Shown: positions 3,651 through 51,109 of the stretch, piece by piece | Layout: each line of letters starts with the position of its first letter | Position numbering within the stretch: the first letter of the stretch is position 1 | NCBI GenBank assembly: GCA_000002445.1 | Contig: CM000208.1 | Coordinates: 1,536,001 to 1,600,000 of the forward strand | Direction of reading: 5' to 3' | Source of the DNA: Trypanosoma brucei | Taxonomy: Eukaryota | Length of the DNA: 64,000 bases | Translations under genes and position numbers: made by a program | The notes under the pieces: model-generated | Database searches by the model: none | What the model saw: only the letters and a program-made list of their open reading frames with translations | Told to the model about the DNA's origin: nothing

Positions 3651-4230
3651 CAACAGCGACACCTGCAGTGTCCCGGTGAAGGTGACAACAACCGCAAAGA
3701 AACGGTTGGAAGAAGTGACAAAAACTAAAAAAGAAAAAAGTGAACTGTGACGAGGAGACAATACATACACAAACGCATACAAAATAAGCTTGTAAGCAGA
3801 ACAGAGGATGCTTTGCGACGCCAAACTGTGCCACCTCTGTACACAGTTTCCGCTTCTTTGTACGCGAGTAAATGAGCGCCGACAGCAACAACATTGTTAC
3901 AAAAAGTAACGACAACAACAACAGTAATGATAGTAAGAGTCCTATCTACCCGTAATTCCTCAAAGGTAAATATACTCGTCGCATTTGAAATACAAACACG
4001 AGTGAGCATATATAAATATATTCTTCTTTTTATATTTATGTGTGAGCGTGTAGGCGCGTATAAAAGGGACAGGAAAGGAAGTTGACCTTCGTCCTTACTT
4101 CTAAGCAGTGGAAAGAACACCGGTCACGTTAAATATATATAAATGCAACAGTTACTAAACCTCTTCTTTCTCCCTTTTTTCATTTACCTTTTTCTCATTT
4201 TTTTTTGATGTATTACATCACTCCTTGAAC

Positions 4231-19522: not shown

Positions 19523-20363
19523 CCTCCAGTCAAACACTAAATGAAACTAAGACAGTCAGACTGTGCACCGACAACGAAACCACTAAATTTTTCCCGTACC
19601 TCTCCCTTTCTGGTACAGTTCCCCCTCCCACCGCGATATACGCAATAATACTTGTACTTGCTTACCTCCTACCTATGGTTTCTTTCACACCGCCTTCCCT
19701 TCTTCCACTCTCGCGAAGGTGCGTGTATGCTGCCTTTCCTTTATTATTATTATTATTTGTTCTTTCGCACTCCTTCTCGCTAAGTGTGTTTGAGCAAGGG
19801 TGACCACTCCGTCTCCAGTCACCTTAACCGCATACACAGAGCGCCTTTTGAAGCGGGCAAACAGAAGCCAAGAAAGTAAATTTGGAATAAAGGGAGGAAA
19901 ACTTAAAACATACTCGGGAACAAATCCGCAGGAAGCAGGGTGAAACAGTAGGAAACACAGAAAGGACAAAGAAAGTGTAACACATCAAAAGAAGGAGAAA
20001 CGCCGCCAACAAAGCAGAAACAACATAATTTTCCGCACGCGGAGAGGCGAGGAATAGCGCCAAAATAATGGCAGTGGCTAGTTGCCGCTCAACATGCCAC
20101 ACTTTGATGGCACAGTTCACAATAGTGAAGTTGAGACGTGCACGCAAAAAAATTACAAGCGACGGCACCAATCAGTGAGCGTCACTTTCTGCTCGCACCA
20201 GCACCCCCCCCCACCGCCAACCTTGTACCACGCGCATACACATAGTGAATACAACACAAAGTGGCACTTCCACATATGCGAATGAGAGCGCGGCTTCGAA
20301 GTAGTCACCGATGAAAAGAAAGAAAGAACAACCGCGAAGACTCCCATTCCCGAGATATTGGTG

Positions 20364-34388: not shown

Positions 34389-36224
34389 TTAGGTACATGT
34401 CGTGGAGTGGCCACGGCTACCCTTATCAGACAATGCAAGTGGAACCTTCCTACAGGTTAAAGTGTCTCCAAATGCTCTTGACAACCCGTCACCCTCCCTC
34501 ATCAATATTAGGCGCTTGCCCTCCACTAGCTGCTTGTCTCTCCGATTTTGCCGTAGCATCCCAGTAGACTTGGTGACATTTTGGCGGTTGGGAGGCGAAG
34601 GACGCGTGACACCTGGCAGGCCCCCCAAAAGGTCCCCGCCATGCTCACCACCAGCTATAACCTTCTGATCAAATGCTGAGAGATGTGCATGTACAAAGTT
34701 ACGGATTTGGGGATCCGTTGGATTCAAGTTGTAACATGACAGCACATCCCTCAAGGCATAGCGTGGTTGGTTCATATCAAAGCGACATCTCGCGCGATGG
34801 TAAAAAAACACCGGCTCCGTACTGCACGTCGCAATGGCGGTACTAAACTCCCTCTCTGCTTCTTCATGTTTCCCTTCTCTATGAAGTTCACAACCGTGTA
34901 TATCGTGCAACACAGCAATTCGCTGCGTTGCTTCGGGGTGTTTCGGGGATATTCTGTCCACAGTCAAGAAGTCGAATAATGCCTTTTGATAATCCCCCAT
35001 CTTAATGTAACACTCACCACGGGCAAGCAACACGGGGATGTTGTCTTGCCGCCACATCAGGGAAGTAGTGTAGTATTTGATTGCATCGGCTGTTGTACTT
35101 TGGCCATCATTGCTTGAACCAAGACGAAACAGCGTTTCTGTCATTAAGTCGATGGCATGTGCATGTCTTCCCTCAGAAGCGCTGATGCAGCGAAACAAAT
35201 CAGTAACTGCTTTCCTGTCCATTCCCTTGGCAATATAGTGTTTGGCGCGCTCTAATAGCAAGGTAGAATCACCTGGAAACACCGAAATACAACGGGTAAG
35301 TCCTTGCAGGTCCGAATGGTCGATGGAGCGATTACGGTAAGTTTTGTAAGTGCGACTAAATATGTGCTGTGCCAGCAGAACTTGGGGATGCTGCCGCTCC
35401 TCTAGAGGAACCCTTTCCAACAACGCCTTCGCGGGACTGAACGACTGACGAAGGCAGTAGATGTGGACAAGCAGAGAACAGCTAAGAATAAAGAATGAGG
35501 GGTTCTCTTCAATATGCTTATCTAAAACTTTCTCCGCTTCATCCTCGCGCTCAAGTGCGATCAGGTAAGCGCAACGGTGCAAAACCACTTGCGGATCTTT
35601 ACATAATTCCAGTGACTCGTCAGTAAAACGGAGGGCTTGCTCATAGTCCTCCACGTTGAACAAAACAATGCTCAGCGCGTCGAGAATACCGGCCAGTCGG
35701 CGCCGCACCGCCCTCTCAAGTGAGGCATCATCATACGGTTCCGTGGTACAAGCGGAACTTCCTCTGCGAAAAATGGTGTGTCCTGTAACATCTGTACTTA
35801 CAGAAAATGACACTCCATCTAACCCATTACAATCCATCAAATCACTCCCAAAGGCAGTTGAACTACCATCTGCTGCGGTAGTTGGTCTCCCTTGCGGGGA
35901 AAAAAATGAGCGGCTATCACGCCCCGTACCTGAGGCACGCGAACAGCAATTACTGCGCCCGTTCGATGACCGAAGCAGCCATAGGGATCGGCGGTACTGC
36001 TTCACAGCGCCTTGGAAATCATAGAGCGAGACATGGCATTCTGCGGAGGCAATGAACGGGTGCGGTTTGTGTGGAGCAAAGAAGGATGCTTTGGAAAACG
36101 CCAGGATCGCCTTCTCCAACTCCCCGTTCTGCATGTACTGAAGTCCCTCCTGGTACCTGAACTCGCCCTTCTCGTCAGAGTAGAGAACATTCGACTGCAC
36201 GACTGGTTCAGGCGACACCGACAT
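34389..36224 (-). CDS. Tetratricopeptide-repeat (TPR) protein, about 611 aa
   Basis: Multiple TPR-like 34-residue units, e.g. 'YQEGLQYMQNGELEKAILAFSKASFFAP', 'ARGECYIKMGDYQKALFDFLTVDRISP' and 'LHREGKHEEAEREFSTAIA'. The track start at 36236 is GTG; the first ATG is at 36224 ('cat' at 36222-36224, MSVSPEPVV...). Confidence 0.75.
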   Translation of the reverse strand: MSVSPEPVVQSNVLYSDEKGEFRYQEGLQYMQNGELEKAILAFSKASFFAPHKPHPFIASAECHVSLYDFQGAVKQYRRSLWLLRSSNGRSNCCSRASGTGRDSRSFFSPQGRPTTAADGSSTAFGSDLMDCNGLDGVSFSVSTDVTGHTIFRRGSSACTTEPYDDASLERAVRRRLAGILDALSIVLFNVEDYEQALRFTDESLELCKDPQVVLHRCAYLIALEREDEAEKVLDKHIEENPSFFILSCSLLVHIYCLRQSFSPAKALLERVPLEERQHPQVLLAQHIFSRTYKTYRNRSIDHSDLQGLTRCISVFPGDSTLLLERAKHYIAKGMDRKAVTDLFRCISASEGRHAHAIDLMTETLFRLGSSNDGQSTTADAIKYYTTSLMWRQDNIPVLLARGECYIKMGDYQKALFDFLTVDRISPKHPEATQRIAVLHDIHGCELHREGKHEEAEREFSTAIATCSTEPVFFYHRARCRFDMNQPRYALRDVLSCYNLNPTDPQIRNFVHAHLSAFDQKVIAGGEHGGDLLGGLPGVTRPSPPNRQNVTKSTGMLRQNRRDKQLVEGKRLILMREGDGLSRAFGDTLTCRKVPLALSDKGSRGHSTTCT

Positions 36225-37028
36225 TATGCAACACACTTGTATGGTGTCAGTCGTGCGAAATATAGGAAGAGAGAAGCAGAAATAGCCCCTAAATGAATGC
36301 TTGTTCCCTCAATCAGGCCGAGTTGTGATCTCTTAGATGGGAAATGTACATACACATAAAGACACACAAGCTTCTGTTCCGCCTATGCTGCCAAATAATA
36401 ACAACTGTAACTGCACAAGGCACCCTTCCATAACCACAGTGAGTCGACACGAGGAAGTATAAGGAGCGGGGAAAGAGGAAAGAAACTGAGAGATAAAAAC
36501 GCGACTAAAGGTGAGGGTCAGAGACCCGGCACGTTTGCGGACCAACAGCAACAGCAATGGTAAAAAACGGGTGCGTTGGGGAAGTAAACATACCGTACCT
36601 ATCCACACAGTTGGGTGCTTCGAAGTGTGCCCAAATAGTATTAAGCTAACGTCCATCTGAACGAGTTACACGTGAATTAATAAGAGCGTTACTAAAAGAG
36701 AAATTAACAGGATGGTTTTAAAAAACAAAGAGAGAGAACTGAGACAGATATATTCGTTTACTAACATGGATTACTGGTGACACAACACCCGAAGGGCAGT
36801 TACAGCGGAGCTCCACTGATATGCGCAAACTCCCTTGCTACACCACCCGACGAATCGTGTTACAATATTAAAATCTAAGGAAAGAGCACAGACAAGCTAT
36901 CAGTGGCAAGATTAGTGTGGAAGAGATGATATCCCGTGCATGTCGTGCCACGTCACTTCCAACAAAGTACTATGGACAACTTAGTTTTCTTTTTTTGTGT
37001 GTGATGCGACAAGGCAGAGAAATCCACA

Positions 37029-39434
37029 TCAGCGCCCAATGACTCTGTCGGCTCCCCGTTTCTTGGCAGCTTTCTTGAGACGAGGTTTCTTTTGTGGTGG
37101 ATCATCACTACCATTGAAGGGGTCAGCAGGCGGCACTTCTACACGCGCCCGCTTCTTCCGTCGAGTGGAACATTCCCCGGCAACTGTAGCTGTCTCCGGA
37201 TATTGTGCATCGGGGGAAGAATCTTTCACATTTGTAGTCTCCTCAGGTTGAGCTGCCACATCACCGACGGATACCTCCTCAGCCGTCACGGCCTTTGGTG
37301 GCCCATCCATTCCGTACTTCAACAGAAGTTCGGGGCGGTACACCGCCAGCTCGTCGAGCTCATAGCGGTAGCAGCGGGCCGCATTGCACTCTATCGCTCC
37401 GCCATGTGCCGTCTTCTCTGCGATGGCGGCATCGGGACACACAATTTGGACGTCGCGTTTCCACTCATTCCTATAGTAACCAACTCGCCCGGCAATGGGA
37501 AACTTCGCAGCTACCTCGGTGGGGATGGGCTTCATAGAACTCCTTTTTTTCTTCTTCGGAACTCCCCCCAAGTATTCCTCCAACATGATGCTTAACTTAC
37601 TCCCGCTGTTGCATATCAAAAGTGTAACGCCGGAGTCGGGTTGAAGCTCGACTAGGGTATTGCAGGCAGCTTCGATTTCCTTACAGTCGATAAAAGGTAA
37701 TCGCAACACGCCTTGATAGGCAAAAATTGCCTCGCTGTAGTCTACATCCACGTGATCTGGGTAAAATGGACCGAAGACAGAGTTTGGATCTAACACGGCG
37801 CCGTGCAACTCCACGGGCAGCCCCCCAACACTCATGCGCGGTAACACCGCAAGCAGCTGCACCACGGGATGCCTCGGTGTGCCTCGCTCAAACTCAACGT
37901 CCACTGAGTCTGTAAAGCGAGCCAAGTCGTCCAGCAATGGGGCATAATGATACGGATAGAACCAGTTCCACGAAGGGCAACCAGATGTGTAGTACCGCAT
38001 CACCCATTGAGTTCCCCGCAAATACTCCGCACAACAGCGTTTAACTCTCTTCTCAAACTTGGACCGTTTCTCAGGGTCCCATCCGAATTTCTTCTGGTAG
38101 TACTTATCTCGGTAATCCTCGTCGTGATACGTAAAACCTAGTGAACCTTTGTCCCCAACAAATGACACTCGTTCCTTCAAAGCAGACACCATCAATTTGT
38201 GAGCGGTGTCACTAACCTCCTGGGCATTGGTTTTGTCACGTTTAACGCTTGCCAAAACCTTTTTGAGTTCAACCTGGTATTTGTTCACCCGCTCCGCCAC
38301 GTTGCCTCTCCCTCGCTCTTTCGCTCGCTCCCCAAACGAGGATTCGTCCCTCAAGACAGAACCATAGTCATTCAGGAATCGAGCTAAGAACGAAGACAGA
38401 GCTTTAAATCTCACCTCTCCACCATCTGTTAAATACGAGTGACTTGCAAATTCGTTAACGTAGTGGTCTAACAGAAGCTCGACACCTCTCGTTTTGATCG
38501 ATATTAAGGGAACGTGCGGAAGAAAGTCATTCCCGACAAAAAAACATAAAAAAATAAAATCGTCGACGACACGCTCGAAACTCATCTCCTTAATGCCATC
38601 AAAATCCCTTTTCAAACACTCACGAAATTTAACCAAGCTAAAGTAGCAAAACTTTCCATGAGCTGCATTGAACGTTTCGTTGAGTTGGTTTCGCAAAATG
38701 GTCACACTCTTCTCATGAGTCGAGAGTCCGAGACTGATGAGGTCAGCATCCATGCCATAAATAACGTGAGACGTATCCGGATCGTAGCCCGGCTGCATCC
38801 GAAGACCACGGATGTATTGCATAATCTTATGCTCACCTTCACCGGGGACGTGTGCATCGGAAAAGACAACGGCAACTTTCTTCCACAATGGGTCCTCATT
38901 TACCTTCTTCACAACAAACCATTCAATGGCAAGACCCAGGCGCTCCATGAACGGTGTTGAGGGTGTGATAACATTGTGATCCCAACGTTCCCTCACCTTG
39001 GGGTAAGGTAGGCCCTTCTCTAACAACACATCGGCACACTTCGCCGACATCACTTCACCTTCCGCTCGCTCCTCTGCAGCGCGAAAACGCCGGCTTCGCT
39101 GCTGATTCATCTTACTCTGTGGTGCAACACCGTCCACACAGAGAATAAGGCATTTCCGTGGCCTCACCACCTTAAACACAAGATCTATTTGAGTAAAAAC
39201 ACGCTCAAACATTTCTTCCTCCGACTCGGGCTCAGGTAGCGGAGACGTATCGTGACAGCATGGGTGAACGAGCCCGTTCAGATCCAAATACAAGTTGTCG
39301 AACTTATGTGACTGCATATACTCCTTTGGAGGTGGAGACGACTTCGAAGCGGCTTCAACCACGCACTGCGGAACATCCTCCATGCAAGATGCGTACCAAC
39401 GCTTCAACCACAGGTAAAAACCGGCAATCCCCAT
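37029..39434 (-). CDS. 5'-3' exoribonuclease of the XRN family, 801 aa. It is one of the short kinetoplastid XRN paralogues, possibly XRND/Rat1-like, but the paralogue cannot be assigned from sequence alone.
   Basis: XRN N-terminal signature 'MGIAGFYLWLKRWY' (compare 'MGVPxFFRWL'). Catalytic-core motif 'LILCVDGVAPQSKMNQQRSRRFRAAEE' (compare 'DGVAPRAKMNQQRSRRFR'). Downstream acidic active-site blocks: 'VIYGMDADLISLGLSTHE' and 'FLCFFVGNDFLPHVP'. True ATG at 39434. Confidence 0.85.
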   Translation of the reverse strand: MGIAGFYLWLKRWYASCMEDVPQCVVEAASKSSPPPKEYMQSHKFDNLYLDLNGLVHPCCHDTSPLPEPESEEEMFERVFTQIDLVFKVVRPRKCLILCVDGVAPQSKMNQQRSRRFRAAEERAEGEVMSAKCADVLLEKGLPYPKVRERWDHNVITPSTPFMERLGLAIEWFVVKKVNEDPLWKKVAVVFSDAHVPGEGEHKIMQYIRGLRMQPGYDPDTSHVIYGMDADLISLGLSTHEKSVTILRNQLNETFNAAHGKFCYFSLVKFRECLKRDFDGIKEMSFERVVDDFIFLCFFVGNDFLPHVPLISIKTRGVELLLDHYVNEFASHSYLTDGGEVRFKALSSFLARFLNDYGSVLRDESSFGERAKERGRGNVAERVNKYQVELKKVLASVKRDKTNAQEVSDTAHKLMVSALKERVSFVGDKGSLGFTYHDEDYRDKYYQKKFGWDPEKRSKFEKRVKRCCAEYLRGTQWVMRYYTSGCPSWNWFYPYHYAPLLDDLARFTDSVDVEFERGTPRHPVVQLLAVLPRMSVGGLPVELHGAVLDPNSVFGPFYPDHVDVDYSEAIFAYQGVLRLPFIDCKEIEAACNTLVELQPDSGVTLLICNSGSKLSIMLEEYLGGVPKKKKRSSMKPIPTEVAAKFPIAGRVGYYRNEWKRDVQIVCPDAAIAEKTAHGGAIECNAARCYRYELDELAVYRPELLLKYGMDGPPKAVTAEEVSVGDVAAQPEETTNVKDSSPDAQYPETATVAGECSTRRKKRARVEVPPADPFNGSDDPPQKKPRLKKAAKKRGADRVIGR

Positions 39435-40563: not shown

Positions 40564-42636
40564 TTAGGCAGCGTAAATACCGTTTTTGAATGTCCCATCA
40601 AACACAGTGCCATCGGGATAGCACAGACGGCCTTTCCCGTGCGGCCGGCGATTACACACGTCACCTTCATACATACTTCCATCGATAAATTGGATCTTTC
40701 CCCGCACATCTTTCTGTGTGCCACTACACCACTCACCAACATGTGTCTCGCCGCAAGCATCAGTGAAGCAACCACATCCATGCGGCTTGTCGTTACGCCA
40801 CTCACCGACGTACACCGAGCCGTCTGCGTACCGCAACGTCCCGCTACCACACCGCCCCCCGTTGGACCAGTCACCCTCGTAAACATCACCGTTATTGTAC
40901 CTATAGTGCACAAACCCATCCTGTGACGCTCCCTGATGCCAAAGACACCGCAAAACGGTTCCATCGGGGAAGGAAGCAACTCCCACGCCCTGTCGCTTGC
41001 CATCTAGCCATGTTCCCTCATAAATGTCTTCTGCCGAGCGAGATGTGCCATAGCTCTCTAGTTTTCCTAGAAGAAACAGTCCTTCATACTGGGTGCCAGT
41101 CTCTCCTTCCAATGCTATACCGTGGCCCACCTGGCGATCCCCCTTCCAACTACCTCTGTACATGGACCCGTTGCACCCTTGGTAATAGCCCTCTCCACAG
41201 CGAACGTCATCCTCAAACTCTCCGTGATATGTTCCATCAACTGCACGTTGAACGCCCAAACCACAGCGCACCCCTTTGAACCACTCTCCGGCGTAACTTC
41301 GATTCAGGCCAGTCTCAACAAACTTACCAAAACCGTGCCTCTTGTCGTCTTTCCAACTCCCTTCGTACTTGTCGCCATTGGGGTACGTACAGCAGCCGAT
41401 ACCCTCCCGACAAAGTGACTCATCATTCCAGCCTCCGACGTACACCTCGCCATTGGGAAATGTGAACACACCCCCTTGCCGCTGTCCGTTTTCCCAGTCG
41501 GCTACACAAACGACGCCATTTGCAAAAGTCAACTTCCCCTCACCGGTGCGTTTGTCGTCCTCCCATTTTCCAACGAAAACGTTCCCGGGGGCATCGGTGT
41601 GGGTACCATTTCCATGCCGGCAGCCCTTCGTCCACTCTCCGACGTAAAAGGACCCATCGGGATAGTTAGCTCTGACCTCGGGGCAAAGTTCATCATTCTC
41701 CCATTTTCCGGTCACCGCAACACCACTTGAGTACACAAACAACCCCTCTCCTGAGCGCACATCGTCCTCCCAATGTCCCTGATACCGTGATCCGTCAGGA
41801 TAAAATGCCTTCCCAAGACCATGTTTGTTGTCAAGGTGCCATTCTCCTTCGTAATGAAGGCCATTTGAGGTACAAAAGACGCCAAACCCCTCTCGCATAC
41901 CTTCCTTCCACATTCCCCAGTACGAGCGGTCTGACCACTGGTAAACACCAAGACCCTCCTTCTTCCCATTTACCCACTCCCCTTCGTACACCTCAGCTGT
42001 AAGCAAAGGCAAGGCAATGATGGACCAACTGACCTCACGACGAGACACACCGAGTAGCGACGCCCTCGCCACAGGAGTTGCCTCCTCTCGGCGGTACGAC
42101 CTCGAGTTTTGCTTCCTTAAACTATGTGCACTCCACCTCACTGCGCCCTCTTCAACATTACGGGCGTCTAATCCATATATTACACGACCAAAGCCATGAT
42201 AGTAGAAACCTAACCACGAGCCGCAGTACAAAGATTTGTTGATAAGCGAATACCATTCCGCCTCGTAGCTGTCGCGAAGTGTCAGTTTAAGGCGGATGAA
42301 AGAGTTCCCGTTGTCTTCCACGTAACGCACAGCAAGGTAAAGAGTTCCAAGACTGTAGGAAGGATCCGCTGGGAGAATAGTTAACATTTTGTTCGGATCT
42401 GGTGAAAGGTGCTTCCATACGGCCGTGTGCTTACTTGGATGCGGGTCCGTTGGACTCAGCAGCAGCACGCACCGCGAGGCCGTATTAAATTCCTGAAACT
42501 CAATCAACACTTGCGAGGGTTTTTCAAGCTTGATGCTAAAAAACAACGCCGGATCTGTCACCCCAATACGAACATCACATAACTCCGCGTCTGGTATAAG
42601 AGGGATGGAGATCTTATCCTCCGTTACAGTTAACAT
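40564..42636 (-). CDS. MORN-repeat protein, 690 aa: a non-MORN N-terminal domain of about 200 aa followed by about 16 tandem MORN repeats
   Basis: Repeated 23-residue units of the form 'YEGEWxxGKxHGxGxxxxxDGSxY', e.g. 'YEGEWVNGKKEGLGVYQWSDRSY', 'YEGEWHLDNKHGLGKAFYPDGSRY' and 'YVGEWTKGCRHGNGTHTDAPGNVF'. True ATG at 42636. The repeat DNA also creates spurious long ORFs in other frames (e.g. 40386..41003 minus, 40471..40926 plus). Confidence 0.85.
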   Translation of the reverse strand: MLTVTEDKISIPLIPDAELCDVRIGVTDPALFFSIKLEKPSQVLIEFQEFNTASRCVLLLSPTDPHPSKHTAVWKHLSPDPNKMLTILPADPSYSLGTLYLAVRYVEDNGNSFIRLKLTLRDSYEAEWYSLINKSLYCGSWLGFYYHGFGRVIYGLDARNVEEGAVRWSAHSLRKQNSRSYRREEATPVARASLLGVSRREVSWSIIALPLLTAEVYEGEWVNGKKEGLGVYQWSDRSYWGMWKEGMREGFGVFCTSNGLHYEGEWHLDNKHGLGKAFYPDGSRYQGHWEDDVRSGEGLFVYSSGVAVTGKWENDELCPEVRANYPDGSFYVGEWTKGCRHGNGTHTDAPGNVFVGKWEDDKRTGEGKLTFANGVVCVADWENGQRQGGVFTFPNGEVYVGGWNDESLCREGIGCCTYPNGDKYEGSWKDDKRHGFGKFVETGLNRSYAGEWFKGVRCGLGVQRAVDGTYHGEFEDDVRCGEGYYQGCNGSMYRGSWKGDRQVGHGIALEGETGTQYEGLFLLGKLESYGTSRSAEDIYEGTWLDGKRQGVGVASFPDGTVLRCLWHQGASQDGFVHYRYNNGDVYEGDWSNGGRCGSGTLRYADGSVYVGEWRNDKPHGCGCFTDACGETHVGEWCSGTQKDVRGKIQFIDGSMYEGDVCNRRPHGKGRLCYPDGTVFDGTFKNGIYAA

Positions 42637-43140
42637 TTGACACTTCTTCTCGGCACCGGCGACGGATATCTAAATATTTCGTGCTAAGCGTCAGAAAAAA
42701 GAAGGAGCAAAACAACAGAGGTTTGGGAGTTGATAAAACAAAAAAATGTAGGTAAGTAGTAAATAAAAACAAAAAAAGAGCGTTTTATCCTTATCACATC
42801 CACCGCACGCAGCTCCTCAGTTTGGTATTTATTTGCCTTTACCCCCGGCATGTAGGGATATCACCGCTCGCCACAACCGAGTATTCATGACAGAGACTCA
42901 ACAACATATTGACAATGATAGCAGTGACAATACCGGTGACGAACGGCAGAACAAAAATTTTTGTTGTATTTAAATAAGTGTTGTTATCAGCACACGCCTA
43001 TTGTTATTGCTACGATTATTATTATCACTATTTTAGCCATAAGAGTCAACAACACGTCATTCATCCCCGCCACTCCTTTCCACCCCCTATAGCGAAACGT
43101 TTTCATGGGGTTAAAAAAGGAAGCCTGGCGGTAGTGTACA

Positions 43141-43167
43141 ATATACATATATATATATATATATATT
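43141..43167. repeat. (AT)n microsatellite
   Basis: 'atatacatatatatatatatatatatattttg' seen directly. Confidence 0.85.
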
Positions 43168-44216
43168 TTGTGGTGGGAGAAAGCTACATGCATAAACCGC
43201 ACGTGGAACGATGATACACCCAACAAACAAACAATTATAACAACAAGGAATAGCATTTCACGCACAAATATAGATGTCCACATAGAATAAACTTTTTAAA
43301 AAAATACTTAAAAAAACTAATTGTATGAATAACACATGAATTCCCTTTCCCCACCCTGCTCCAATGGATACCCTCGCACTATCCCCGGTACAAAAGAAAA
43401 AGATAAAACGAAAACCAAAAAACAACAACAACAATAGCAATAAGGAAAAGAACAAATCACTCCCCACCCCCCTCAATCACCCTATTTCCCCTTCCCCAAA
43501 ATGACCCCAAATACACGGCATTCGGTTCCCTACCAAAAGACCAACGAGAACCCTCAACATTCACACGACGCAAACGCAAACACAAACCCATATAAATAAA
43601 GAAAAGCATACGGATAATGAAAGGCATTTATAGTAATAATAATAATAAACTATTGCCACGGACGCAAGCAGCCCCACTACAACAGGGAGCAGAGTCGTCT
43701 TCCAACACCCAACCACTCCTGAAAGAAAGAAAAAGAGAAGTCGCCCTCACATAAAACAATAATAAGTGGTCGGATGAAAATAAGAAGGGAAAAAAAAGAA
43801 GACGTGGAAAGAATAGTGGGTAAAACGAGACATTTAAACGCGATAACCAGACGGAAAGAAAGGAAGAGATATATAAGAAACGTAGCGCAAACTAAGGGCT
43901 GGAAAAAGAAGAAATGTCAATACTCGCACATTACTTCTGTCCCGGCACCCACACTTACAACCGATACGTCGAAACGCACCACAATAGACATAAACATTTA
44001 AAAAAGACATAAAATCAAAACAAACTGGCCCTTCACCGGTACAACACGTGCTTGCAACCTGTACAAAAAAAAATATGTATTAATGTACAGTCACACACAC
44101 GCAAAACAAAAGAACCAATGCACAACCAGAGGTCGAGAACCCACAAAATGATCTCAAACAGCACAAACCAATTCACTGCATGACATCGAATTGACAACTT
44201 GACAACGATAAACTTT

Positions 44217-45428
44217 CTACATGATTACACACGAACCTGTGCATCCCACCTCCCGGCGACGACCAGACAGCTCCCGCTTCTTCTGACGTTCCAACCCACA
44301 CGCGTGCACCTCTCCATCATGTGAAAGGCTACGAAGAAGCGTAGACTGTGTTTCCGTCTGATTTGGGGGACCTTCAGATACACAGTATCCATTTTCATGC
44401 AAAGCTGAAAAAGGTTCTGGCTCGGTCCCTCCAACCAATACAACATCCGAGCACCAGGGAGCACTCCCGTCTTCGCACTCTGTTGGTCCCCGCACGGCAT
44501 CAACGGTATTTCTTCGGGCGGCGGAATTACGTCTTGATGCAACAGCGACACCCACCAAACTGGGAGTTCGCTTTACAACCACAGCACTCGGTGATGTGGT
44601 GCCTCCAACGGCAATATTAGATCGCTCCCCCAATGCTCTTATGGGAGAGCGCATACGGAAGAATGCACTGCCAGGTCGTTCGTCAAACGATGTAAAACAC
44701 GGCGTCAAGGAAGGGGGTGTAGCAAACTCTATCGAGGAGGTCAAGGTTACCGGCGCGGGAAGTCTTCTCTTTGAGAAGTTACTTATCATTAGAATCATGA
44801 TACGCAACGCATGCAATACCTCATTTGTGCGTAACGCGGAAACTTCCACAACAGGAAGTGTAGAAGAAATCGCGTCACGCACCAGTTTGGCAAATCCCTC
44901 AGCCTCCACAACCTTTTTCCTGTTCATGTGCTGCATCTTCAGCGAAAGTGCCGAGAGACATGACCTTGCAACGGCTTCCGCCTCTGGCATAGTGACCACA
45001 CGACTACGACGGTCGTCCCGCTTCGTTCCCACCAGCAGAATGGGCATCGCAGCCTTAACCCCAATATTGTGACGCGCTTCCCTCAACTCTTTTACCCACC
45101 CAACTACAGATGCTAGGGACTCCTTGTCCGTCGTTGAGTAGAAAAGCAGAACACCGTCCGCGCGCGCGAGATAGAGCAACCGGTGGCGCACAAACGCCTC
45201 ACTTCCAGAGGAGTCGCATAGATGCAAAACATAATTCCTGCCGTCCACTGTCGTTCTGTGTATAAACGTCTCCAGGGTCGTCGGCACGTAATCGCTACGG
45301 AATGTCCCTTTCATCACCTGGTCAATGAAGGTGCTCTTACCAACACGTTCACATCCAAGAACGACTACATTATATAACGTCGGAACAGAGGCGTATTTTT
45401 GCGCACTCCCATCACCACGTAGGTTCAT
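44217..45428 (-). CDS. Atypical Ras/Rab-like small GTPase with a 170-aa Ser/Arg-rich C-terminal extension ending in a CaaX prenylation box (CVIM), 403 aa
   Basis: G1 P-loop 'LGCERVGKST'; switch-I Thr in 'YVPTTLETF'; G3 'LHLCDSSGSEAF' (DxxG, but with Ser at the Ras Gln61 position); G4 'LLVGTKRD' ([N/T]KxD); G5 'VVEVSAL'. The C-terminus is '...GCTGSCVIM' followed by the stop. True ATG at 45428. Confidence 0.75.
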   Translation of the reverse strand: MNLRGDGSAQKYASVPTLYNVVVLGCERVGKSTFIDQVMKGTFRSDYVPTTLETFIHRTTVDGRNYVLHLCDSSGSEAFVRHRLLYLARADGVLLFYSTTDKESLASVVGWVKELREARHNIGVKAAMPILLVGTKRDDRRSRVVTMPEAEAVARSCLSALSLKMQHMNRKKVVEAEGFAKLVRDAISSTLPVVEVSALRTNEVLHALRIMILMISNFSKRRLPAPVTLTSSIEFATPPSLTPCFTSFDERPGSAFFRMRSPIRALGERSNIAVGGTTSPSAVVVKRTPSLVGVAVASRRNSAARRNTVDAVRGPTECEDGSAPWCSDVVLVGGTEPEPFSALHENGYCVSEGPPNQTETQSTLLRSLSHDGEVHACGLERQKKRELSGRRREVGCTGSCVIM

Positions 45429-45838: not shown

Positions 45839-47584
45839 TCAGAAGAACACACTCCCCATACCCCCCTCAAAATACAGGTGGTTATACTCTCGGTTGTTGT
45901 GACGGAAATTCTTCGCCACGAATGCAAAAAGAGCTTTAGAGGAAACTTCCCCCTGGACCCCATTCCCTTCAGAAGGATACCCGCTCGCAACTGGTAGCAC
46001 AGGGCCTCCTGGCCCTGTGCTACCACGCACCTCCCCTTTGAGGAAATTCAGTGTTGGACACGGCATGTTCTCATCCTGGCGCAAGCAAGCAGCAACGTCC
46101 ACAATGCGTACCCACAACGAATACAAAAGTATCTCCTGGCAATCCTCCCGAGTCACTTGAGCGCCATGTCGCACGACGCCGTATTTCCACACATCATGCA
46201 AAGGATACAGCACATTACGGTAGAACCAGCTTCGATGGCGACTGCGCGCATACAGCGCTACGCGGTACCTCACTGCCTGGTACGCGCGAGTCATTCTGCT
46301 GTAGTACTGCTCGTGCACCTTGGGTCCCTCACTGGGCTTCGGTCTTGCATTCAATGTGGCTTGGTCGAGTCGCTCGAGCGACTCGCTAACCATTCGGAGA
46401 TATAATTGTTTTGCCTCCGACGACGTTAGGGAGGAGGACGGTGCACCGTAAATCAGTTGAAGTTCCGCAACTGACTCCACATATTGCCGCACAAACAATC
46501 CATCGCTTCCGCTTCGCTGGACCACCAATGGGGCTGCAAGAAACAAGGCGAACGAAGCAGCACTACACGTTACTATGAACATGATAACAATGCGGATGCA
46601 ATATGCGAGAAAGAGTCGAAATTCCCTGCGCATCTCAGAGTCTATTCTCCCTACTTCAGTGACGGATACAGTAGAAGAGCTACAATTTGCCACGGCCACC
46701 GGTACGTCAACGGGTGGCCAGCTTGGTGGTGGCTGGTGCCTAGAGCGGAGGTAGCCATTGCGACGTCTGCCATGCGGGTTGCTATTTTCCTTCGGTATGG
46801 GCGAGAGTTCGAGGGGCCCCAGCGTGGACCTCGAGAACGAATTGGATGACGGCGTTGCCTGGCTTGAACGCCCGCTCGTTTTGGGGGAGCCCACCCCCGC
46901 TGCGGGTGCAGTGCTCTTAAGGTACGCAATGGCACTGCGTGTGCTCAGAAAACTAAGATCACTGCGGCTTCCCCCGTGCTTGGGGCGCCTTCCGTCAGAT
47001 GATTGCCGCGTGTGGAAGTGAGACTGCTTACTAGATGTATGTGATGAAAGAGCGCTACTACGTGAAGTCGAATGGGGAACCAGAGTGGTTCCCACTTCCA
47101 ATACCCCGCAAGAACTTCGCACGTCCGGCACACTCCCACGAGTTTGAGGTAGTCCAAAAGAGATGGACTCACGAAGGTGAGAAAACCCATGAACCTCCAA
47201 TTGCTCACTGCAGAGTGACGGCGAGTAATCAATAATGCCCTCTACAGACCGAGCACTTGCAGCTTTGGCTACCTGTGGTGAAACCACCGGCCGCTCCCCG
47301 GCGTCACTCATCGCTAGTGCCCCCTCGGGGTGCTGAACCCCACTACTGGTAGATCCATGATTTGTACCACCACTGCCCAAGCCATCGCCTAATGATGCGC
47401 TCACCGATTGTCTAGAGGTTTTCGGTGTCCGCTCAAAATGAGGCTCCCTCTGTCCTTCTCCATCCTCCTCTTCAAATGCTTCATCTACTGCAGCATTGTG
47501 CAGCTCCAGTCGCCGCCGTGTCGGAGTTCTTAGAGGGGTGCTAGTACCGCTCCTCGACGTTCGTTTGGCCCCACTGTGAGCCAT
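45839..47584 (-). CDS. Hypothetical protein, 581 aa: Ser/Thr/Arg/Pro-rich disordered N-terminal half, one predicted transmembrane helix, conserved-looking C-terminal region
   Basis: True ATG at 47584 ('cat' at 47582-47584). Hydrophobic segment 'IVIMFIVTCSAASFALFLAAPLVV'. No family motif recognised. Confidence 0.55.
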   Translation of the reverse strand: MAHSGAKRTSRSGTSTPLRTPTRRRLELHNAAVDEAFEEEDGEGQREPHFERTPKTSRQSVSASLGDGLGSGGTNHGSTSSGVQHPEGALAMSDAGERPVVSPQVAKAASARSVEGIIDYSPSLCSEQLEVHGFSHLRESISFGLPQTRGSVPDVRSSCGVLEVGTTLVPHSTSRSSALSSHTSSKQSHFHTRQSSDGRRPKHGGSRSDLSFLSTRSAIAYLKSTAPAAGVGSPKTSGRSSQATPSSNSFSRSTLGPLELSPIPKENSNPHGRRRNGYLRSRHQPPPSWPPVDVPVAVANCSSSTVSVTEVGRIDSEMRREFRLFLAYCIRIVIMFIVTCSAASFALFLAAPLVVQRSGSDGLFVRQYVESVAELQLIYGAPSSSLTSSEAKQLYLRMVSESLERLDQATLNARPKPSEGPKVHEQYYSRMTRAYQAVRYRVALYARSRHRSWFYRNVLYPLHDVWKYGVVRHGAQVTREDCQEILLYSLWVRIVDVAACLRQDENMPCPTLNFLKGEVRGSTGPGGPVLPVASGYPSEGNGVQGEVSSKALFAFVAKNFRHNNREYNHLYFEGGMGSVFF

Positions 47585-48548: not shown

Positions 48549-50363
48549 CTACCACTCACCACTGATGTTCTCCCGGCGCTTCTTCAGCGTAGTTTCGTTC
48601 AGCCTCCGCCTTTGACTATCCTTGGATTCCATCATCCGGCGGAATTCATGCCGCGACTTCTTACTCATGTGCGCAGCGGACTGCGATAGATCCAACTTCA
48701 GCGGTGGTGGCTCACTTAGGGCGAAGCCTTTGGCGACTGCGGCGAGGTCGAGGTTGTGAATGTCAAAAACGTTTTTTAACTGAGAGCTGCTGTAGCTGAG
48801 CAAATAGCCCTCATACGCGAGGCGTGCGGAGCTGCGCAGGTAGTAGTTGGCACTCACAAGCTGCTCCAGCTGCTCAGCTACATTTCCCTTCACCTTATTA
48901 AGATCAAATGTGTACTCACTCACTGACACATGGGCGTCGTCGTGCAGATACTTGAGAAACAGTTTCTCCTGGGGAAGAAGAAACATAAGAGCATTCCCTG
49001 TGCGACCAGCACGGGCGGTACGGCCAACGCGATGGACGTACTTGACGGGGTCGTCAGGTGGGTCAAATTGAACGATCCAATCAACCTGCGGAATGTCGAG
49101 ACCACGGGCAGCTACATCTGTGGTAAAGAGCACGCCGCTAGGGGCGTTACAAAACTGCATGTACGTGGCCGAGCGCTGGTGTTGTTTTTGTTTTCCGTGA
49201 AAGGCAACGCAAGGAACATCGATGTAGTTAAACAACTCGCAGTGAAAACTAACAGCATTGCGACTGCTGAAGAAAACGATTACTTTCTTCTTCAGATTCC
49301 GCCTGACAAAGTGATACAGTACAAGCAACCGCTGCTGTGAAGGACAAATAACATAACCCTGTTCCAACGTGTCAACGGTTGCCTTGTCCTCCTTACGCTT
49401 CATTGAAATGAACAGGGGTGGTCGGTAGAACGACACGCGAGCCAACTGTTCGACCCTAGTTGTTTGAGTCGCAGAAAACAAGAACGTTTGTCGCTGCCTG
49501 GGCAGTAAAGAAACAATTTCTCGCATATCATCTTCAAATCCGTTGTCAAGCACACGATCCGCCTCATCGACGGCCAAAACGAGTAAATTCTTTGTTAACC
49601 AATCCGTTGTAAGCTTAAGATGATCCAAGAGACGCCCAGGGGTGGCCATCACAACCATCATGCCACTCACAAGTTTAAACGCCTCTTGCTTCCGACTTAT
49701 TCCGCCTATGCAACAGAGGAACGTTACCGATCCGTTAAAGTGTTTGAGCAGCTTCAGCAGCACTCCTTCAATCTGGAGACACAGCTCACGCGTTGGCCCA
49801 ATGATGATTGCAGCCGTTCCGCTTCGCTGACGAAAACCCACGCGCGTGATGATCTCCACTATTGGGATAAGAAAAGCTAAAGTTTTACCAGAGCCTGTCT
49901 TTGCCTCTGCAAGGAGATCTCGACCGGCAAGGGCAGCAGGAATGCATCGTCCCTGAATGCCTGTCAGCTCCTGGAACTTGAAGTCATTCTCCAATGCAGT
50001 TACTATGTGAGGATTTAACTTCAGCGACCTGTAGTCGGAAACAGGGGGATACTTCTCTCGGTCCCTTGAAACTTTAATTGGCGGACCGTTGGTTTCAGGT
50101 TGCTCTAACTTCCCCGGTTCCTCTTCTCGTTGCCTTTTACGACGTCCAGACGTTTCCCCCTCAACATCGGGCATGGATGCCGCCTTTTCTTCATCCACTG
50201 GGTACTCCTGCTGTTCTTCCCCACCTTCTTCACCAACAAAGGTAAGGGTTTCGTCGTCCGCCTCAGTTGCTTGACTTATCCTACGTTTCGGGCGATGGCG
50301 TCGCATGCGCCTCCGTTTCTTCTCCGGTATCTCCTCCGCAGAGCCTACGTCATCCACACCCAT
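48549..50363 (-). CDS. DEAD-box ATP-dependent RNA helicase, HAS1/DDX18-like ribosome-biogenesis helicase, about 604 aa with a basic and acidic N-terminal extension
   Basis: Q motif 'FQELTGIQ', motif I 'AKTGSGKT', motif II 'VDEAD', motif III 'SAT', motif VI 'HRVGRTARAG'. The block 'GFEDDMREIVSLLPRQRQTFLFSATQTTRVEQLARVSF' matches Has1 '[38 protein letters not shown]' closely (recalled from memory). The track start at 50420 is TTG; the first ATG is at 50363 ('cat' at 50361-50363, MGVDDVG...). Confidence 0.85.
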   Translation of the reverse strand: MGVDDVGSAEEIPEKKRRRMRRHRPKRRISQATEADDETLTFVGEEGGEEQQEYPVDEEKAASMPDVEGETSGRRKRQREEEPGKLEQPETNGPPIKVSRDREKYPPVSDYRSLKLNPHIVTALENDFKFQELTGIQGRCIPAALAGRDLLAEAKTGSGKTLAFLIPIVEIITRVGFRQRSGTAAIIIGPTRELCLQIEGVLLKLLKHFNGSVTFLCCIGGISRKQEAFKLVSGMMVVMATPGRLLDHLKLTTDWLTKNLLVLAVDEADRVLDNGFEDDMREIVSLLPRQRQTFLFSATQTTRVEQLARVSFYRPPLFISMKRKEDKATVDTLEQGYVICPSQQRLLVLYHFVRRNLKKKVIVFFSSRNAVSFHCELFNYIDVPCVAFHGKQKQHQRSATYMQFCNAPSGVLFTTDVAARGLDIPQVDWIVQFDPPDDPVKYVHRVGRTARAGRTGNALMFLLPQEKLFLKYLHDDAHVSVSEYTFDLNKVKGNVAEQLEQLVSANYYLRSSARLAYEGYLLSYSSSQLKNVFDIHNLDLAAVAKGFALSEPPPLKLDLSQSAAHMSKKSRHEFRRMMESKDSQRRRLNETTLKKRRENISGEW

Positions 50364-51109
50364 AGTGCAACTCTGCTGCCAACTTCCTGCCGTTACAAAC
50401 TTTACACAGAACCCCCGCAAAAGTTCACCTTTTATTTAACTTTGCGTCTCCATCGGTAAGCGCGCAAGGCGGGGCACAAGGATACGCGTAGCAAGTAGAA
50501 AAACAAAAATGGATAAAATAGAGTAGTTAAACGGCGCGTAAAGCTGTAAAACAAAAGCGCAAGCACACATAACAGTAGAAACGATAAGCCTTTTTAACAC
50601 AAGCACTCACCATAATCACCGTGTGGTAAATGTCCGAAGATATAACGCCAGAAGGCAGGGAAAGCAGAGAACGCAGTGCCCCGCTACTTGGATTCATCCG
50701 CTCGACTAGTAAAGGAAGAGGGCCACAACACCACAACACGCCCTCAATAACGTAATGACGCGGAACCTCCAGGTAGCCAAGCGGTATGGCACTCCCGAGT
50801 TCGTTTGACCACCCGATTCCGGGCAATAATGCGCCACCACCACGCGTACACAGCAAGGGGGACAATTGCTGATGCAAGAAACGAAGATAATATAACATAA
50901 TATAATATATATATCGAGCCATAAACTACATTAACCACCATACGTGATGGCATTACCCGCGACAACAGTGGCGCGAGCCATGAGTCAGCCGCATGGTAAA
51001 TGCGGGAGGGTGGTGGGCACTGGAAGAACATTAACCTCTGTCCCCACCCCTTTTTCCGAAACCAGCACGCAGCTTTTAAAAAATATACAAACAAGCTCCG
51101 GCGTAACAA

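What the first reader, a model, noticed from the sequence alone, without database searches (positions are those of the whole stretch)
44217..45428. Atypical prenylated small GTPase: Ser replaces the catalytic Gln, TKxD G4 motif, 170-aa tail ending CVIM
The G-domain has intact P-loop and G5 motifs. However, it has 'DSSGSE' where Ras has 'DTAGQE', so the Gln61-equivalent is lost, which predicts low intrinsic or GAP-stimulated hydrolysis. It also has TKRD rather than NKxD. A long Ser/Arg-rich tail ends in a farnesylation-type CaaX box. This looks like a divergent, possibly constitutively GTP-bound, membrane-anchored regulator rather than a standard Rab, Ras or Arf.
Basis: partly seen in the sequence, partly recalled or inferred. 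Interest (0 to 1): 0.5.

Follow-up and report, generated by a model that had tools for sequence, protein, structure and literature searches.

The report
Known trypanosome GTPase TbRHP, rediscovered
This is the already published Trypanosoma brucei gene TbRHP, a divergent lipid-anchored Ras/Rho-like switch protein needed for cell division; the odd motifs are real and conserved, but they were noted in 2011, and nobody has yet measured whether the protein hydrolyses GTP.

Summary
The 403-aa ORF at 44217-45428 (minus strand) is real. It is letter-for-letter XP_822866.1 = Tb927.10.6240 = TbRHP of T. brucei TREU927 chromosome 10. Abbasi et al. 2011 (PMC3214021) characterised it and already reported LCDSSGSE, the CVIM box and the long C-terminus.

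Checks made here:
- Ser76 aligns with Ras/Rac Gln61.
- The Ras Gly12, Gly13 and Ala59 equivalents are also replaced (Glu27, Arg28, Ser74). This is the same four positions that are substituted in GTPase-dead Rnd proteins.
- All 7 Trypanosoma orthologues keep Ser at position 61 and a non-Gly at position 12.
- 17 of 18 trypanosomatid orthologues keep a CaaX box plus a second upstream Cys.
- TKRD is not atypical; it is the Rac-type G4 motif (Rac1 has TKLD).
- The tail is predicted disordered and only mildly Ser/Arg-enriched.
- The tail carries a published cell-cycle-regulated phosphosite, S290.

The "constitutively GTP-bound" reading is plausible, and it fits the dead RhoGAP domain (Arg to Gln) of the partner TbOCRL. 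It has never been tested biochemically. Tagged protein was cytoplasmic or perinuclear, not clearly membrane-bound.

Sequence and fold similarity favour Ras/Di-Ras over Rho, and there is no Rho insert.

Verdict: an ordinary rediscovery of a known gene. Small new side observations are listed below.

The parts
44217..45428 (-). Complete CDS of TbRHP (Tb927.10.6240, XP_822866.1), 403 aa plus stop
   Evidence: ORF list and translation. Exact-sequence look-up returns XP_822866.1 / Q38AY2. PMC3214021 equates XP_822866 with Tb927.10.6240 / TbRHP.
44757..45380 (-). Ras-superfamily G domain, residues 17-224
   Evidence: Pfam Ras E = 3.8e-26. The AF2 model is confident over residues 12-224. Foldseek matches KRAS, HRAS and Ral with target-normalised TM about 0.85.
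45333..45356 (-). P-loop GCERVGKS. The GxxxxGKS frame is kept, but Glu27 and Arg28 occupy the Ras Gly12 and Gly13 positions.
   Evidence: Alignment A3. Position 12 is non-Gly in 7 of 7 Trypanosoma orthologues.
45264..45290 (-). Switch I YVPTTLETF, with Thr50 at the Ras Thr35 position
   Evidence: Thr50 is invariant across the orthologues and aligns with Ras Thr35.
45198..45215 (-). G3 / switch II DSSGSE. Ser74 is at the Ras Ala59 position and Ser76 (45201-45203) at the Ras Gln61 position.
   Evidence: Alignment to H-Ras, Rac1, Rnd3 and Di-Ras2. D72, S74, G75 and S76 are invariant in Trypanosoma.
45015..45026 (-). G4 TKRD, the Rac-type variant of NKxD
   Evidence: Aligns with Rac1 TKLD. Thr135 and Asp138 are invariant in Trypanosoma, while the Lys varies (K, C or R).
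44853..44948 (-). Lineage-specific 32-aa insert between helix alpha4 and strand beta6, residues 161-192. It is not at the position of the Rho insert.
   Evidence: Shows as a gap against H-Ras and Di-Ras2 in A3. AF2 predicts two short helices there at low confidence, pLDDT 53-66.
44832..44843 (-). G5 VSAL, residues 196-199
   Evidence: Aligns with Rac1 and Rnd3 CSAL and Ras TSAK. Only Glu195 just upstream is invariant, and the SAL itself varies among orthologues.
44232..44756 (-). Poorly conserved C-terminal tail predicted to be disordered, residues 225-399
   Evidence: pLDDT is below 50 over residues 225-403. Conservation outside two short motifs is low.
44559..44561 (-). Ser290, a published cell-cycle-regulated phosphosite in the peptide KRTPpSLVGVAVASR
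   Evidence: Supplementary tables of PMC6907760: localisation probability 0.99998, listed among the cell-cycle-regulated sites in cluster Phos-04. The residue is confirmed in this ORF.
44241..44243 (-). Cys396, a second conserved Cys four residues upstream of the CaaX Cys. It is a candidate S-acylation site (inference).
   Evidence: Invariant in Trypanosoma. A Cys 3-5 residues upstream of the CaaX Cys is present in 17 of 18 trypanosomatid orthologues.
44220..44231 (-). CaaX box CVIM, a farnesylation-type signal (X = Met)
   Evidence: Sequence. A CaaX box is conserved in 17 of 18 orthologues, with X = Met in 16. PMC3206815 calls CVIM a favoured substrate of the T. brucei farnesyltransferase.

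Best explanation
The ORF is TbRHP (Tb927.10.6240), the trypanosomatid-restricted Rho-like protein of Trypanosoma brucei. The identity is shown, not inferred.

Most likely mechanism (inferred):
- The G domain still binds GTP and Mg. It keeps the P-loop Lys31 and Ser32, Thr50, Asp72, Gly75 and the G4 Asp138.
- It cannot hydrolyse GTP efficiently, either alone or with an arginine-finger GAP. The four positions that matter in Ras (12, 13, 59 and 61) are Glu, Arg, Ser and Ser.
- It therefore sits mainly in the GTP form and acts as a standing adaptor rather than a timed switch.
- Its published partners are the catalytically dead RhoGAP domain of TbOCRL (Arg to Gln) and TbRACK1. Its published loss-of-function phenotype is failure of spindle formation and cytokinesis.
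- Control would come from protein level and turnover, from farnesylation of Cys400 (possibly with acylation of Cys396), and from phosphorylation of the disordered tail (pSer290, cell-cycle regulated). GAP and GEF cycling would play little part. This is the logic known for Rnd3 and Di-Ras.
For: Identity:
- Exact match to XP_822866.1, which PMC3214021 names Tb927.10.6240 / TbRHP.
- The neighbouring genes agree. A MORN-repeat protein lies downstream, matching Tb927.10.6230 in the RIT-seq table.

Catalytic residues:
- Ser76 is in the Gln61 column, Ser74 in the Ala59 column, and Glu27 and Arg28 in the Gly12 and Gly13 columns.
- This pattern is conserved in 7 of 7 Trypanosoma species. No orthologue among the 18 has Gln at position 61.
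- Rnd proteins have substitutions at the same four positions. [quoted passage not shown]
- Di-Ras2 is the best or second-best PDB sequence match. It has Ser at position 61, and DIRAS1 and DIRAS2 are 89% and 50% GTP-bound in cells (PMC8668980).

Partners and phenotype:
- The sole RhoGAP-domain protein, TbOCRL, binds TbRHP in yeast two-hybrid assays. It carries an Arg to Gln change predicted to kill GAP activity, and its knockdown phenocopies TbRHP knockdown.

Tail and lipid signals:
- The tail is predicted disordered.
- pS290 is cell-cycle regulated.
- The CaaX box plus an upstream Cys are conserved, and CVIM is a favoured farnesyltransferase substrate.
Against: - No hydrolysis, nucleotide-loading or prenylation experiment on TbRHP was found in the papers read.
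- Lack of Gln61 does not by itself abolish regulated hydrolysis. By established knowledge, Rap has Thr61 and uses a GAP that supplies an Asn.
- HA-TbRHP looked largely cytoplasmic or perinuclear, not clearly membrane-bound.
- The genome-wide RIT-seq screen shows no marked >4C enrichment for this gene at 24 h (ratio 0.227). The strength of the mitotic phenotype is therefore not independently reproduced there.
- The Rnd analogy is convergence, not shared descent.
Confidence: 0.6

Rival explanations
1. TbRHP is a conventional cycling switch. GTP is hydrolysed at a useful rate because a dedicated GAP supplies the catalytic residue in trans, as RapGAP and TSC2 do with an Asn thumb for Rap (Thr61) and Rheb. 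Alternatively, another TbRHP residue substitutes for Gln61.
For: All nucleotide- and Mg-binding residues are retained in Trypanosoma. By established knowledge, precedent exists for Gln61-less GTPases with trans-acting GAPs. Nobes et al. also could not exclude a specific GAP for Rnd. [quoted passage not shown]
Against: Position 12 is Glu, Thr or Asn in every Trypanosoma orthologue. In Ras, substitutions at this position block GAP-stimulated hydrolysis. The only RhoGAP-domain partner lacks its arginine finger. No candidate GAP is known.
Confidence: 0.25
2. The RHP family is drifting towards a pseudoGTPase. The G domain is mainly a structural scaffold, and its function does not depend on the bound nucleotide. 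The conserved part of the function lies in partner binding and the lipidated tail.
For: The syntenic Leishmaniinae orthologues have lost the DxxG glycine, reading DCSS[A/T]. They also lack the G4 aspartate at the aligned position, reading GTH[Y/H][G/R/A]E. They still keep the C-x4-C-aaX tail. Within Trypanosoma the G4 Lys and the G5 SAL are not conserved.
Against: In Trypanosoma the P-loop GK[S/T], Thr50, Asp72, Gly75 and Asp138 are invariant, which argues for selection on GTP and Mg binding. Abbasi et al. argue that binding to a GAP-type domain implies a GTP-bound form.
Confidence: 0.12
3. The ORF is a chance open frame or a pseudogene.
For: None found.
Against: Pfam E = 3.8e-26. Orthologues are conserved and syntenic across Trypanosomatidae. 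Published evidence includes antibody detection of a band of about 45 kDa, RNAi phenotypes and a phosphopeptide identified by mass spectrometry.
Confidence: 0.01

Closest known systems
TbRHP (Tb927.10.6240), Abbasi, DuBois, Leung, Dacks and Field 2011, PLoS One 6:e26890
   Same: Identical sequence (XP_822866.1). The paper already reports LCDSSGSE in place of LWDTAGQE, the absence of a Rho insert, the long C-terminal region and the CVIM motif. It also reports restriction to trypanosomatids, RNAi phenotypes (loss of the spindle, multinucleate cells) and the partners TbOCRL and TbRACK1.
   Different: Nothing differs; it is the same gene. The paper does not point out the substitutions at positions 12 and 13, the four-position parallel with Rnd, the second conserved Cys, or the loss of the G3 Gly and G4 Asp in Leishmaniinae. 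The S290 phosphosite comes from a later paper.
Rnd1/2/3 (RhoE), atypical GTPase-deficient Rho proteins of animals
   Same: Substitutions at the same four Ras positions. Position 12 is non-Gly, position 13 is non-Gly, and positions 59 and 61 are both Ser (Rnd3 DTSGS, TbRHP DSSGS). The CaaX box ends in Met, the farnesyl type. Rnd3 is regulated through tail phosphorylation and 14-3-3 binding rather than through GAPs (PMC2132722, PMC3690454).
   Different: Rnd proteins have the Rho insert and score as clear Rho-family members. TbRHP has no Rho insert, and the RHP-family profile scores Rnd3 at only 53.6 bits against 93.6 bits for Di-Ras2. The resemblance in the catalytic residues is therefore taken here to be convergent (inference). 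The TbRHP tail is about 180 aa, against about 45 aa in Rnd3.
Di-Ras1/2 (Ras-family subgroup, Kontani et al. 2002)
   Same: Best or second-best PDB sequence match (2erx, E = 8.6e-19 with the single sequence and 3.6e-26 with the profile). Ser at position 61 and a hydroxyl residue at position 59 (DTTGS). Substantially GTP-bound in cells.
   Different: Di-Ras keeps Gly12 and Gly13 (GAGGVGKS) and NKCD, is about 200 aa long, and has no alpha4-beta6 insert. Identity is only about 34% over the G domain. Orthology is not established.
TbRlp (Tb927.11.6030), the other Ras-like protein of T. brucei
   Same: A divergent, prenylated, Ras-like GTPase of the same organism that is needed for proliferation.
   Different: A different gene on chromosome 11. 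It is 226 aa long and all of its canonical GTP-binding motifs are intact.

Membership tests
TbRHP / Tb927.10.6240 (gene identity) | Amino-acid sequence identical to XP_822866.1 | tested here: met
   The exact-sequence look-up returns XP_822866.1, EAN78038.1 and Q38AY2_TRYB2. The paper gives XP_822866 as TbRHP.
TbRHP / Tb927.10.6240 (gene identity) | Chromosomal neighbourhood: MORN-repeat gene Tb927.10.6230 downstream and a conserved hypothetical gene upstream | tested here: met
   The downstream ORF 40564-42636 matches Pfam MORN at 1e-65, and the upstream 581-aa ORF has no Pfam match. The RIT-seq table lists 6230 as MORN and 6250 as hypothetical.
Ras superfamily small GTPase (Pfam PF00071) | G1 P-loop GxxxxGK[ST] | tested here: met
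   GCERVGKS at residues 25-32. G25, G30 and K31 are invariant.
Ras superfamily small GTPase (Pfam PF00071) | G2 switch I Thr, G3 DxxG and G4 [NT]KxD | tested here: met
   Thr50, D72-x-x-G75 and T135-K-R-D138 align with their Ras and Rac counterparts.
Ras superfamily small GTPase (Pfam PF00071) | Catalytic Gln at Ras position 61. This residue is typical of the superfamily but does not define it. | tested here: not met
   Ser76 occupies this position. No Gln is found in any of the 18 orthologues.
Ras superfamily small GTPase (Pfam PF00071) | Six-stranded, five-helix G-domain fold | tested here: met
   AF2 secondary-structure order and high pLDDT. Foldseek target-normalised TM is about 0.85 to KRAS and HRAS.
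Rho family | Rho insert helix between beta5 / G4 and alpha4 | tested here: not met
   Only 10 residues separate beta5 (130-136) from alpha4 (147-160) in the model. The extra 32 aa lie after alpha4. The paper also states that the insert is absent.
Rho family | Closer in sequence and fold to Rho than to Ras proper | tested here: not met
   The top 60 PDB sequence hits for both the single sequence and the profile are all Ras, Di-Ras, Ral, Rap, Rheb or Rab, with no Rho. Profile bit scores are Di-Ras2 93.6, H-Ras 81.2, RhoA 53.8, Rnd3 53.6 and Rac1 41.9 (the RhoA sequence was recalled from memory and not verified). There is no Rho among the top 50 Foldseek matches.
Rho family | [quoted passage not shown] | not tested
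   Published Bayesian and ML trees place it at the base of Rho and exclude it from Ras and RLJ. No tree was built here.
Rho family | Binds a RhoGAP-domain protein | not testable with these tools
   A yeast two-hybrid interaction with TbOCRL has been published.
Rnd-type GTPase-deficient G proteins (functional class) | Substitutions at Ras positions 12, 59 and 61 | tested here: met
   Glu27, Ser74 and Ser76, plus Arg28 at position 13. The Rnd pattern is described in PMC2132722.
Rnd-type GTPase-deficient G proteins (functional class) | No intrinsic or GAP-stimulated GTP hydrolysis, and GTP-bound in vivo | not testable with these tools
   No biochemical data were found.
CaaX farnesylation substrates | Cys at position -4 with Met, Ser, Gln or Ala at the C-terminus and nothing after it | tested here: met
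   CVIM is followed by the stop codon. The box is conserved in 17 of 18 orthologues, with X = Met in 16.
CaaX farnesylation substrates | Demonstrated incorporation of farnesyl | not testable with these tools
   The only support is indirect: CVIM is a favoured substrate of the T. brucei farnesyltransferase, and farnesylation was shown for the other T. brucei CVIM protein, KinesinCaaX.

The most novel reading that the evidence does not exclude
The RHP family is a kinetoplastid-specific, convergent counterpart of Rnd and Di-Ras. On this reading it is a permanently GTP-loaded, farnesylated and possibly also S-acylated G protein. Its on/off control is cell-cycle phosphorylation of the disordered tail (pS290) and protein turnover, and its effector is a dead RhoGAP domain (TbOCRL). 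In Leishmaniinae the family has gone further and lost the G3 glycine and the G4 aspartate, becoming a pseudoGTPase that keeps only the P-loop and the lipid anchor.
Probability: 0.35. Interest if true: 0.4.

Novelty: already known. Interest (0 to 1): 0.15.

Why it matters
TbRHP is described as the only Rho-related GTPase of African trypanosomes and as required for spindle formation and cytokinesis. Its CVIM box makes it one of only two T. brucei proteins carrying the farnesyltransferase's preferred signal, so it may be relevant to farnesyltransferase-inhibitor action.

The gene and its unusual motifs are already in the literature, so the scan finding adds no discovery. What remains open and cheap to test is whether the protein hydrolyses GTP at all. 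The conservation data gathered here sharpen that prediction: four catalytic positions are replaced, the family contains no Gln61 anywhere, and the Leishmaniinae copies are degenerate. The data also suggest that the "Rho" label rests on weak ground.

Tried and rejected
- Identity with TbRlp was rejected. TbRlp is Tb927.11.6030, 226 aa, with canonical motifs.
- Orthology with TcRho1 is implied by wording in PMC3206815. It was rejected because Abbasi et al. state that TcRho1 has no T. brucei orthologue and that RHP is a separate gene also present in T. cruzi. The T. cruzi RHP orthologue P0006 was recovered here.
- The database label "RAB6" on the T. theileri, T. grayi, T. rangeli and some T. cruzi orthologues was rejected as an annotation artefact. 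PDB and profile matches are to Ras proper, and the tail ends in a farnesyl-type CaaX box.
- The word-indexed homologue searches found only a few Trypanosoma sequences. The exhaustive HMMER search and a search seeded with the Leptomonas protein were needed to reach Leishmaniinae.
- The held TrypTag supplements (PMC9981465) contain no entry for the gene.
- The T. brucei palmitoyl-proteome paper is not in the searchable library, so acylation of Cys396 could not be checked.
- tRNA and Rfam scans of the whole window found nothing.
- The first H-Ras verification used too strict an E-value and returned nothing. The repeat succeeded.
- No phylogenetic tree was built. There was no named reference set and no ML program, so the Rho-versus-Ras question was addressed only by similarity and by the Rho-insert test.
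Full report
**1. What is in the sequence**

The coordinates 44217-45428 delimit a single 403-codon ORF on the minus strand. It starts at an ATG and ends CVIM-stop. An in-frame stop lies 15 codons upstream of the ATG. The plus-strand frames across the region are broken by stops.

The product matches Pfam Ras (PF00071) at E = 3.8e-26 over residues 21-158, and Roc at 1.3e-12. Every ORF of 250 aa or more in the 64-kb window except one lies on the minus strand. The exception (2992-3750, plus strand) sits inside a longer minus-strand ORF. GC skew is negative throughout. This is the layout of a trypanosomatid polycistronic unit.

**2. Identity**

An exact-sequence look-up returns XP_822866.1, EAN78038.1 and Q38AY2_TRYB2. 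The source name is "small GTPase, putative", from Trypanosoma brucei brucei TREU927, on a 4.05-Mb contig.

Abbasi et al. 2011 (PMC3214021) state that Tb927.10.6240 (NCBI XP_822866) is TbRHP. That paper already reports the following:
- LWDTAGQE is replaced by LCDSSGSE.
- The Rho insert is absent.
- The C-terminal region is unusually long and retains a CVIM prenylation motif.
- Orthologues exist only in trypanosomatids, and the Leishmania orthologues are about 90 kDa.
- The HA-tagged protein is cytoplasmic with a perinuclear concentration.
- RNAi abolishes detectable spindles and produces multinucleate cells.
- The yeast two-hybrid partners are TbOCRL and TbRACK1. TbOCRL is the only RhoGAP-domain protein, and it carries an Arg to Gln change predicted to inactivate GAP activity.

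The authors note that the divergent motif "may suggest altered GTPase activity". They made no biochemical measurement. A literature search for TbRHP or the gene identifier found no later functional study.

The other T. brucei Ras-like protein, TbRlp, is a different gene: Tb927.11.6030, 226 aa, with canonical motifs.

The window's neighbours agree with this identification. A MORN-repeat ORF lies downstream and a 581-aa ORF with no Pfam match lies upstream. These correspond to Tb927.10.6230 and Tb927.10.6250 in a genome-wide table.

**3.

I aligned the G domain with H-Ras, Rac1 and Rnd3, whose recalled sequences I verified as identical to PDB chains 121p_A, 1i4d_D and 2v55_B. I also included the Di-Ras2 stretch printed.

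The alignment gives these equivalences:
- Ser76 is in the Gln61 column.
- Ser74 is in the Ala59 column.
- Glu27 and Arg28 are in the Gly12 and Gly13 columns.
- Thr50 is in the Thr35 column.
- TKRD lies on Rac1 TKLD and Ras NKCD.

The Gln61 claim is therefore correct, but two other claims need amending:
- The P-loop is intact only as a frame. Its two catalytically sensitive glycines are replaced.
- TKxD is the ordinary Rac-type G4 motif, not an oddity.

The tail is about 179 aa and only slightly richer in Ser than the G domain, at 11.8% against 8.4%.

**4. Conservation**

An exhaustive HMMER search of 1.84 billion representatives found 8 proteins at E of 1e-30 or better. The top six are the query's own T. 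brucei cluster and five Trypanosoma orthologues: T. congolense, T. theileri, T. cruzi, T. grayi and T. rangeli. T. conorhini was added later.

All seven Trypanosoma species share these features:
- D[S/C]SGS, so Ser is at position 61.
- A non-Gly residue at position 12 (Glu, Thr or Asn).
- T[K/C/R]xD at G4.
- A C-terminal C-a-a-Met.
- A second invariant Cys three or four residues upstream of the CaaX Cys.

A Leptomonas seymouri protein of 812 aa (P0133) is the positional orthologue. Its locus reads DEAD/SPB4 helicase, unknown gene, RHP, MORN gene, a 405-aa gene with no Pfam match, then XRN. The window has the same order apart from that extra gene.

Ten further Leishmaniinae orthologues were retrieved. 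They keep GxxxxGKT, the switch I Thr and a C-x4-C-aaX tail. Their G3 reads DCSS[A/T], so the DxxG glycine is lost. Their G4 reads GTH[Y/H][G/R/A]E, so there is no Asp at the aligned position. No member of the family has Gln at position 61.

**5. Structure and family placement**

An AlphaFold2 model built from a 15-sequence alignment is confident over residues 12-224 and has the canonical strand and helix order. It is below pLDDT 50 over residues 225-403.

Only 10 residues separate beta5 from alpha4, so there is no Rho insert. A family-specific 32-aa insert lies instead between alpha4 and beta6, residues 161-192, and is modelled at low confidence.

Similarity favours Ras proper over Rho on every measure used:
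- The top 50 Foldseek PDB matches are KRAS, HRAS, NRAS, Ral, R-Ras2, M-Ras, Rheb and one Rab9B, with target-normalised TM about 0.85 for the best. None is a Rho.
- The top 60 PDB sequence matches contain no Rho, whether the query is the single protein or the Trypanosoma profile.
- Profile bit scores are Di-Ras2 93.6, H-Ras 81.2, RhoA 53.8, Rnd3 53.6 and Rac1 41.9.

Similarity is not phylogeny, and the published trees place TbRHP at the base of Rho. Even so, the one structural hallmark of Rho was tested here and is not met. I therefore file the protein as a trypanosomatid-restricted Ras-superfamily orphan that carries the published name "Rho-like".

**6. How it probably works**

What is shown:
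- It is a Ras-fold G domain.
- It retains the nucleotide- and Mg-binding residues.
- It lacks Gln61, Gly12, Gly13 and Ala59.
- It has a conserved farnesyl-type CaaX box.
- Its tail is predicted to be disordered.

What is published:
- It binds a RhoGAP domain that lacks the arginine finger, and it binds RACK1.
- Knockdown blocks spindle formation and cytokinesis.
- pSer290 (KRTPpSLVGVAVASR) is listed among the cell-cycle-regulated phosphosites, whose threshold is a maximum change of at least 3-fold.
- CVIM is a favoured substrate of the T. brucei farnesyltransferase, and only two T. brucei proteins end in CVIM.

What is inferred: TbRHP is hydrolysis-deficient and mostly GTP-bound, and it is controlled by abundance, lipidation and tail phosphorylation.

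The closest functional precedent is Rnd. In Rnd proteins Gly12 is Val, Ala or Ser, Gly13 is Gln or Glu, and Ala59 and Gln61 are both Ser. Rnd1 shows no GTPase activity even with RhoGAP, and the C-terminal residue is Met. Di-Ras is a second precedent.

Caveats:
- Gln61-less GTPases can still be switched off by GAPs that supply a catalytic Asn in trans.
- The observed localisation was largely cytoplasmic.
- The genome-scale RIT-seq screen shows no marked >4C enrichment for this gene at 24 h, with a ratio of 0.227. Library representation fell from 131 to 75 TPM.

**7. Verdict**

The very motifs flagged here were described in 2011.

The "GTP-locked" interpretation is reasonable and is somewhat strengthened here, but it remains untested. 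The "membrane-anchored" part is not supported by the published localisation. The "atypical TKxD" point is wrong.

- The four-position parallel with Rnd.
- The family-wide absence of Gln61.
- The second conserved Cys.
- The placement of the published pS290 in a partly conserved tail motif.
- The degenerate G3 and G4 motifs of the Leishmaniinae orthologues.
- The weak support for the "Rho" label.

Interest is low.

Noticed in passing
L001:8001-10439 (Leptomonas seymouri RHP orthologue P0133); also P0166-P0174: The syntenic Leishmaniinae orthologues (about 810-890 aa) have G3 = DCSS[A/T], so the DxxG glycine is lost. Their G4 reads GTH[Y/H][G/R/A]E, with no Asp at the aligned position. They also carry a much larger insert after alpha4. 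They still keep GxxxxGKT, the switch I Thr and a C-x4-C-aaX tail. This looks like a pseudoGTPase trajectory, which the papers read here do not mention.
   Followed up: partly
window 44241-44243 (Cys396): A second Cys lies 3-5 residues upstream of the CaaX Cys in 17 of 18 trypanosomatid orthologues (C-x2-4-C-a-a-X). It is a candidate S-acylation site and second membrane signal, as in H-Ras. No palmitoyl-proteome data could be consulted.
   Followed up: partly
window 44559-44561 (Ser290): The published cell-cycle-regulated phosphosite pS290 falls in the only partly conserved tail motif. That motif reads TPSLVGVAV in T. brucei and [KR]SVGVT[QH]S in T. cruzi, T. rangeli, T. conorhini and T. grayi. 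The source table tags it as matching a 14-3-3-binding motif.
   Followed up: partly
window 44853-44948: A family-specific insert of about 32 aa lies between helix alpha4 and strand beta6. Cys157 and Leu161 just before it are invariant in Trypanosoma. It is at a different site from the Rho insert, and its function is unknown.
   Followed up: partly
window 1-64000: All but one of the 21 ORFs of 250 aa or more lie on the minus strand, and GC skew is negative in every 2-kb bin. The exception (2992-3750, plus strand) lies inside a longer minus-strand ORF. No tRNA or Rfam match was found anywhere. The window is the interior of one polycistronic transcription unit on T. brucei chromosome 10.
   Followed up: partly
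window 34389-36236, 37029-39434, 40564-42636, 45839-47584, 48549-50420 (all minus strand): The neighbouring ORFs are a TPR / APC3-like protein, an XRN 5'-3' exonuclease, a MORN-repeat protein (Tb927.10.6230), a 581-aa ORF with no Pfam match (Tb927.10.6250) and a DEAD-box SPB4-like helicase. The order helicase, unknown, RHP, MORN, XRN is conserved with Leptomonas seymouri.
   Followed up: partly
window 9797-19537 (minus strand): A very long ORF of 3246 aa. It was not examined.
   Followed up: no
window 42978-43476: The intergenic stretch downstream of the TbRHP CDS has low GC (0.43 in the 42-44 kb bin). Its spurious ORFs translate as YIYIYIY and LLLLLL runs, so it is simple-repeat and pyrimidine-rich spacer typical of trypanosome intergenic regions.
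   Followed up: no
P0005, P0007, P0008 and some T. cruzi entries: Public records name the RHP orthologues of T. theileri, T. grayi, T. rangeli and some T. cruzi strains "small GTP-binding protein RAB6". This looks like an annotation error propagated by similarity.
   Followed up: partly
P0175 (Leishmania enriettii, 634 aa): This is the only orthologue without the C-terminal Cys motif. It is about 240 aa shorter than its relatives, so it is probably a truncated gene model rather than a real loss.
   Followed up: no
Supplementary dataset 1 of PMC9464253, row Tb927.10.6240: In the genome-wide RIT-seq cell-cycle screen (24 h induction) the gene shows no marked >4C or G2/M enrichment. The >4C ratio is 0.227, although library TPM fell from 131 to 75. 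This does not obviously reproduce the strong multinucleate phenotype of the 2011 RNAi study.
   Followed up: partly
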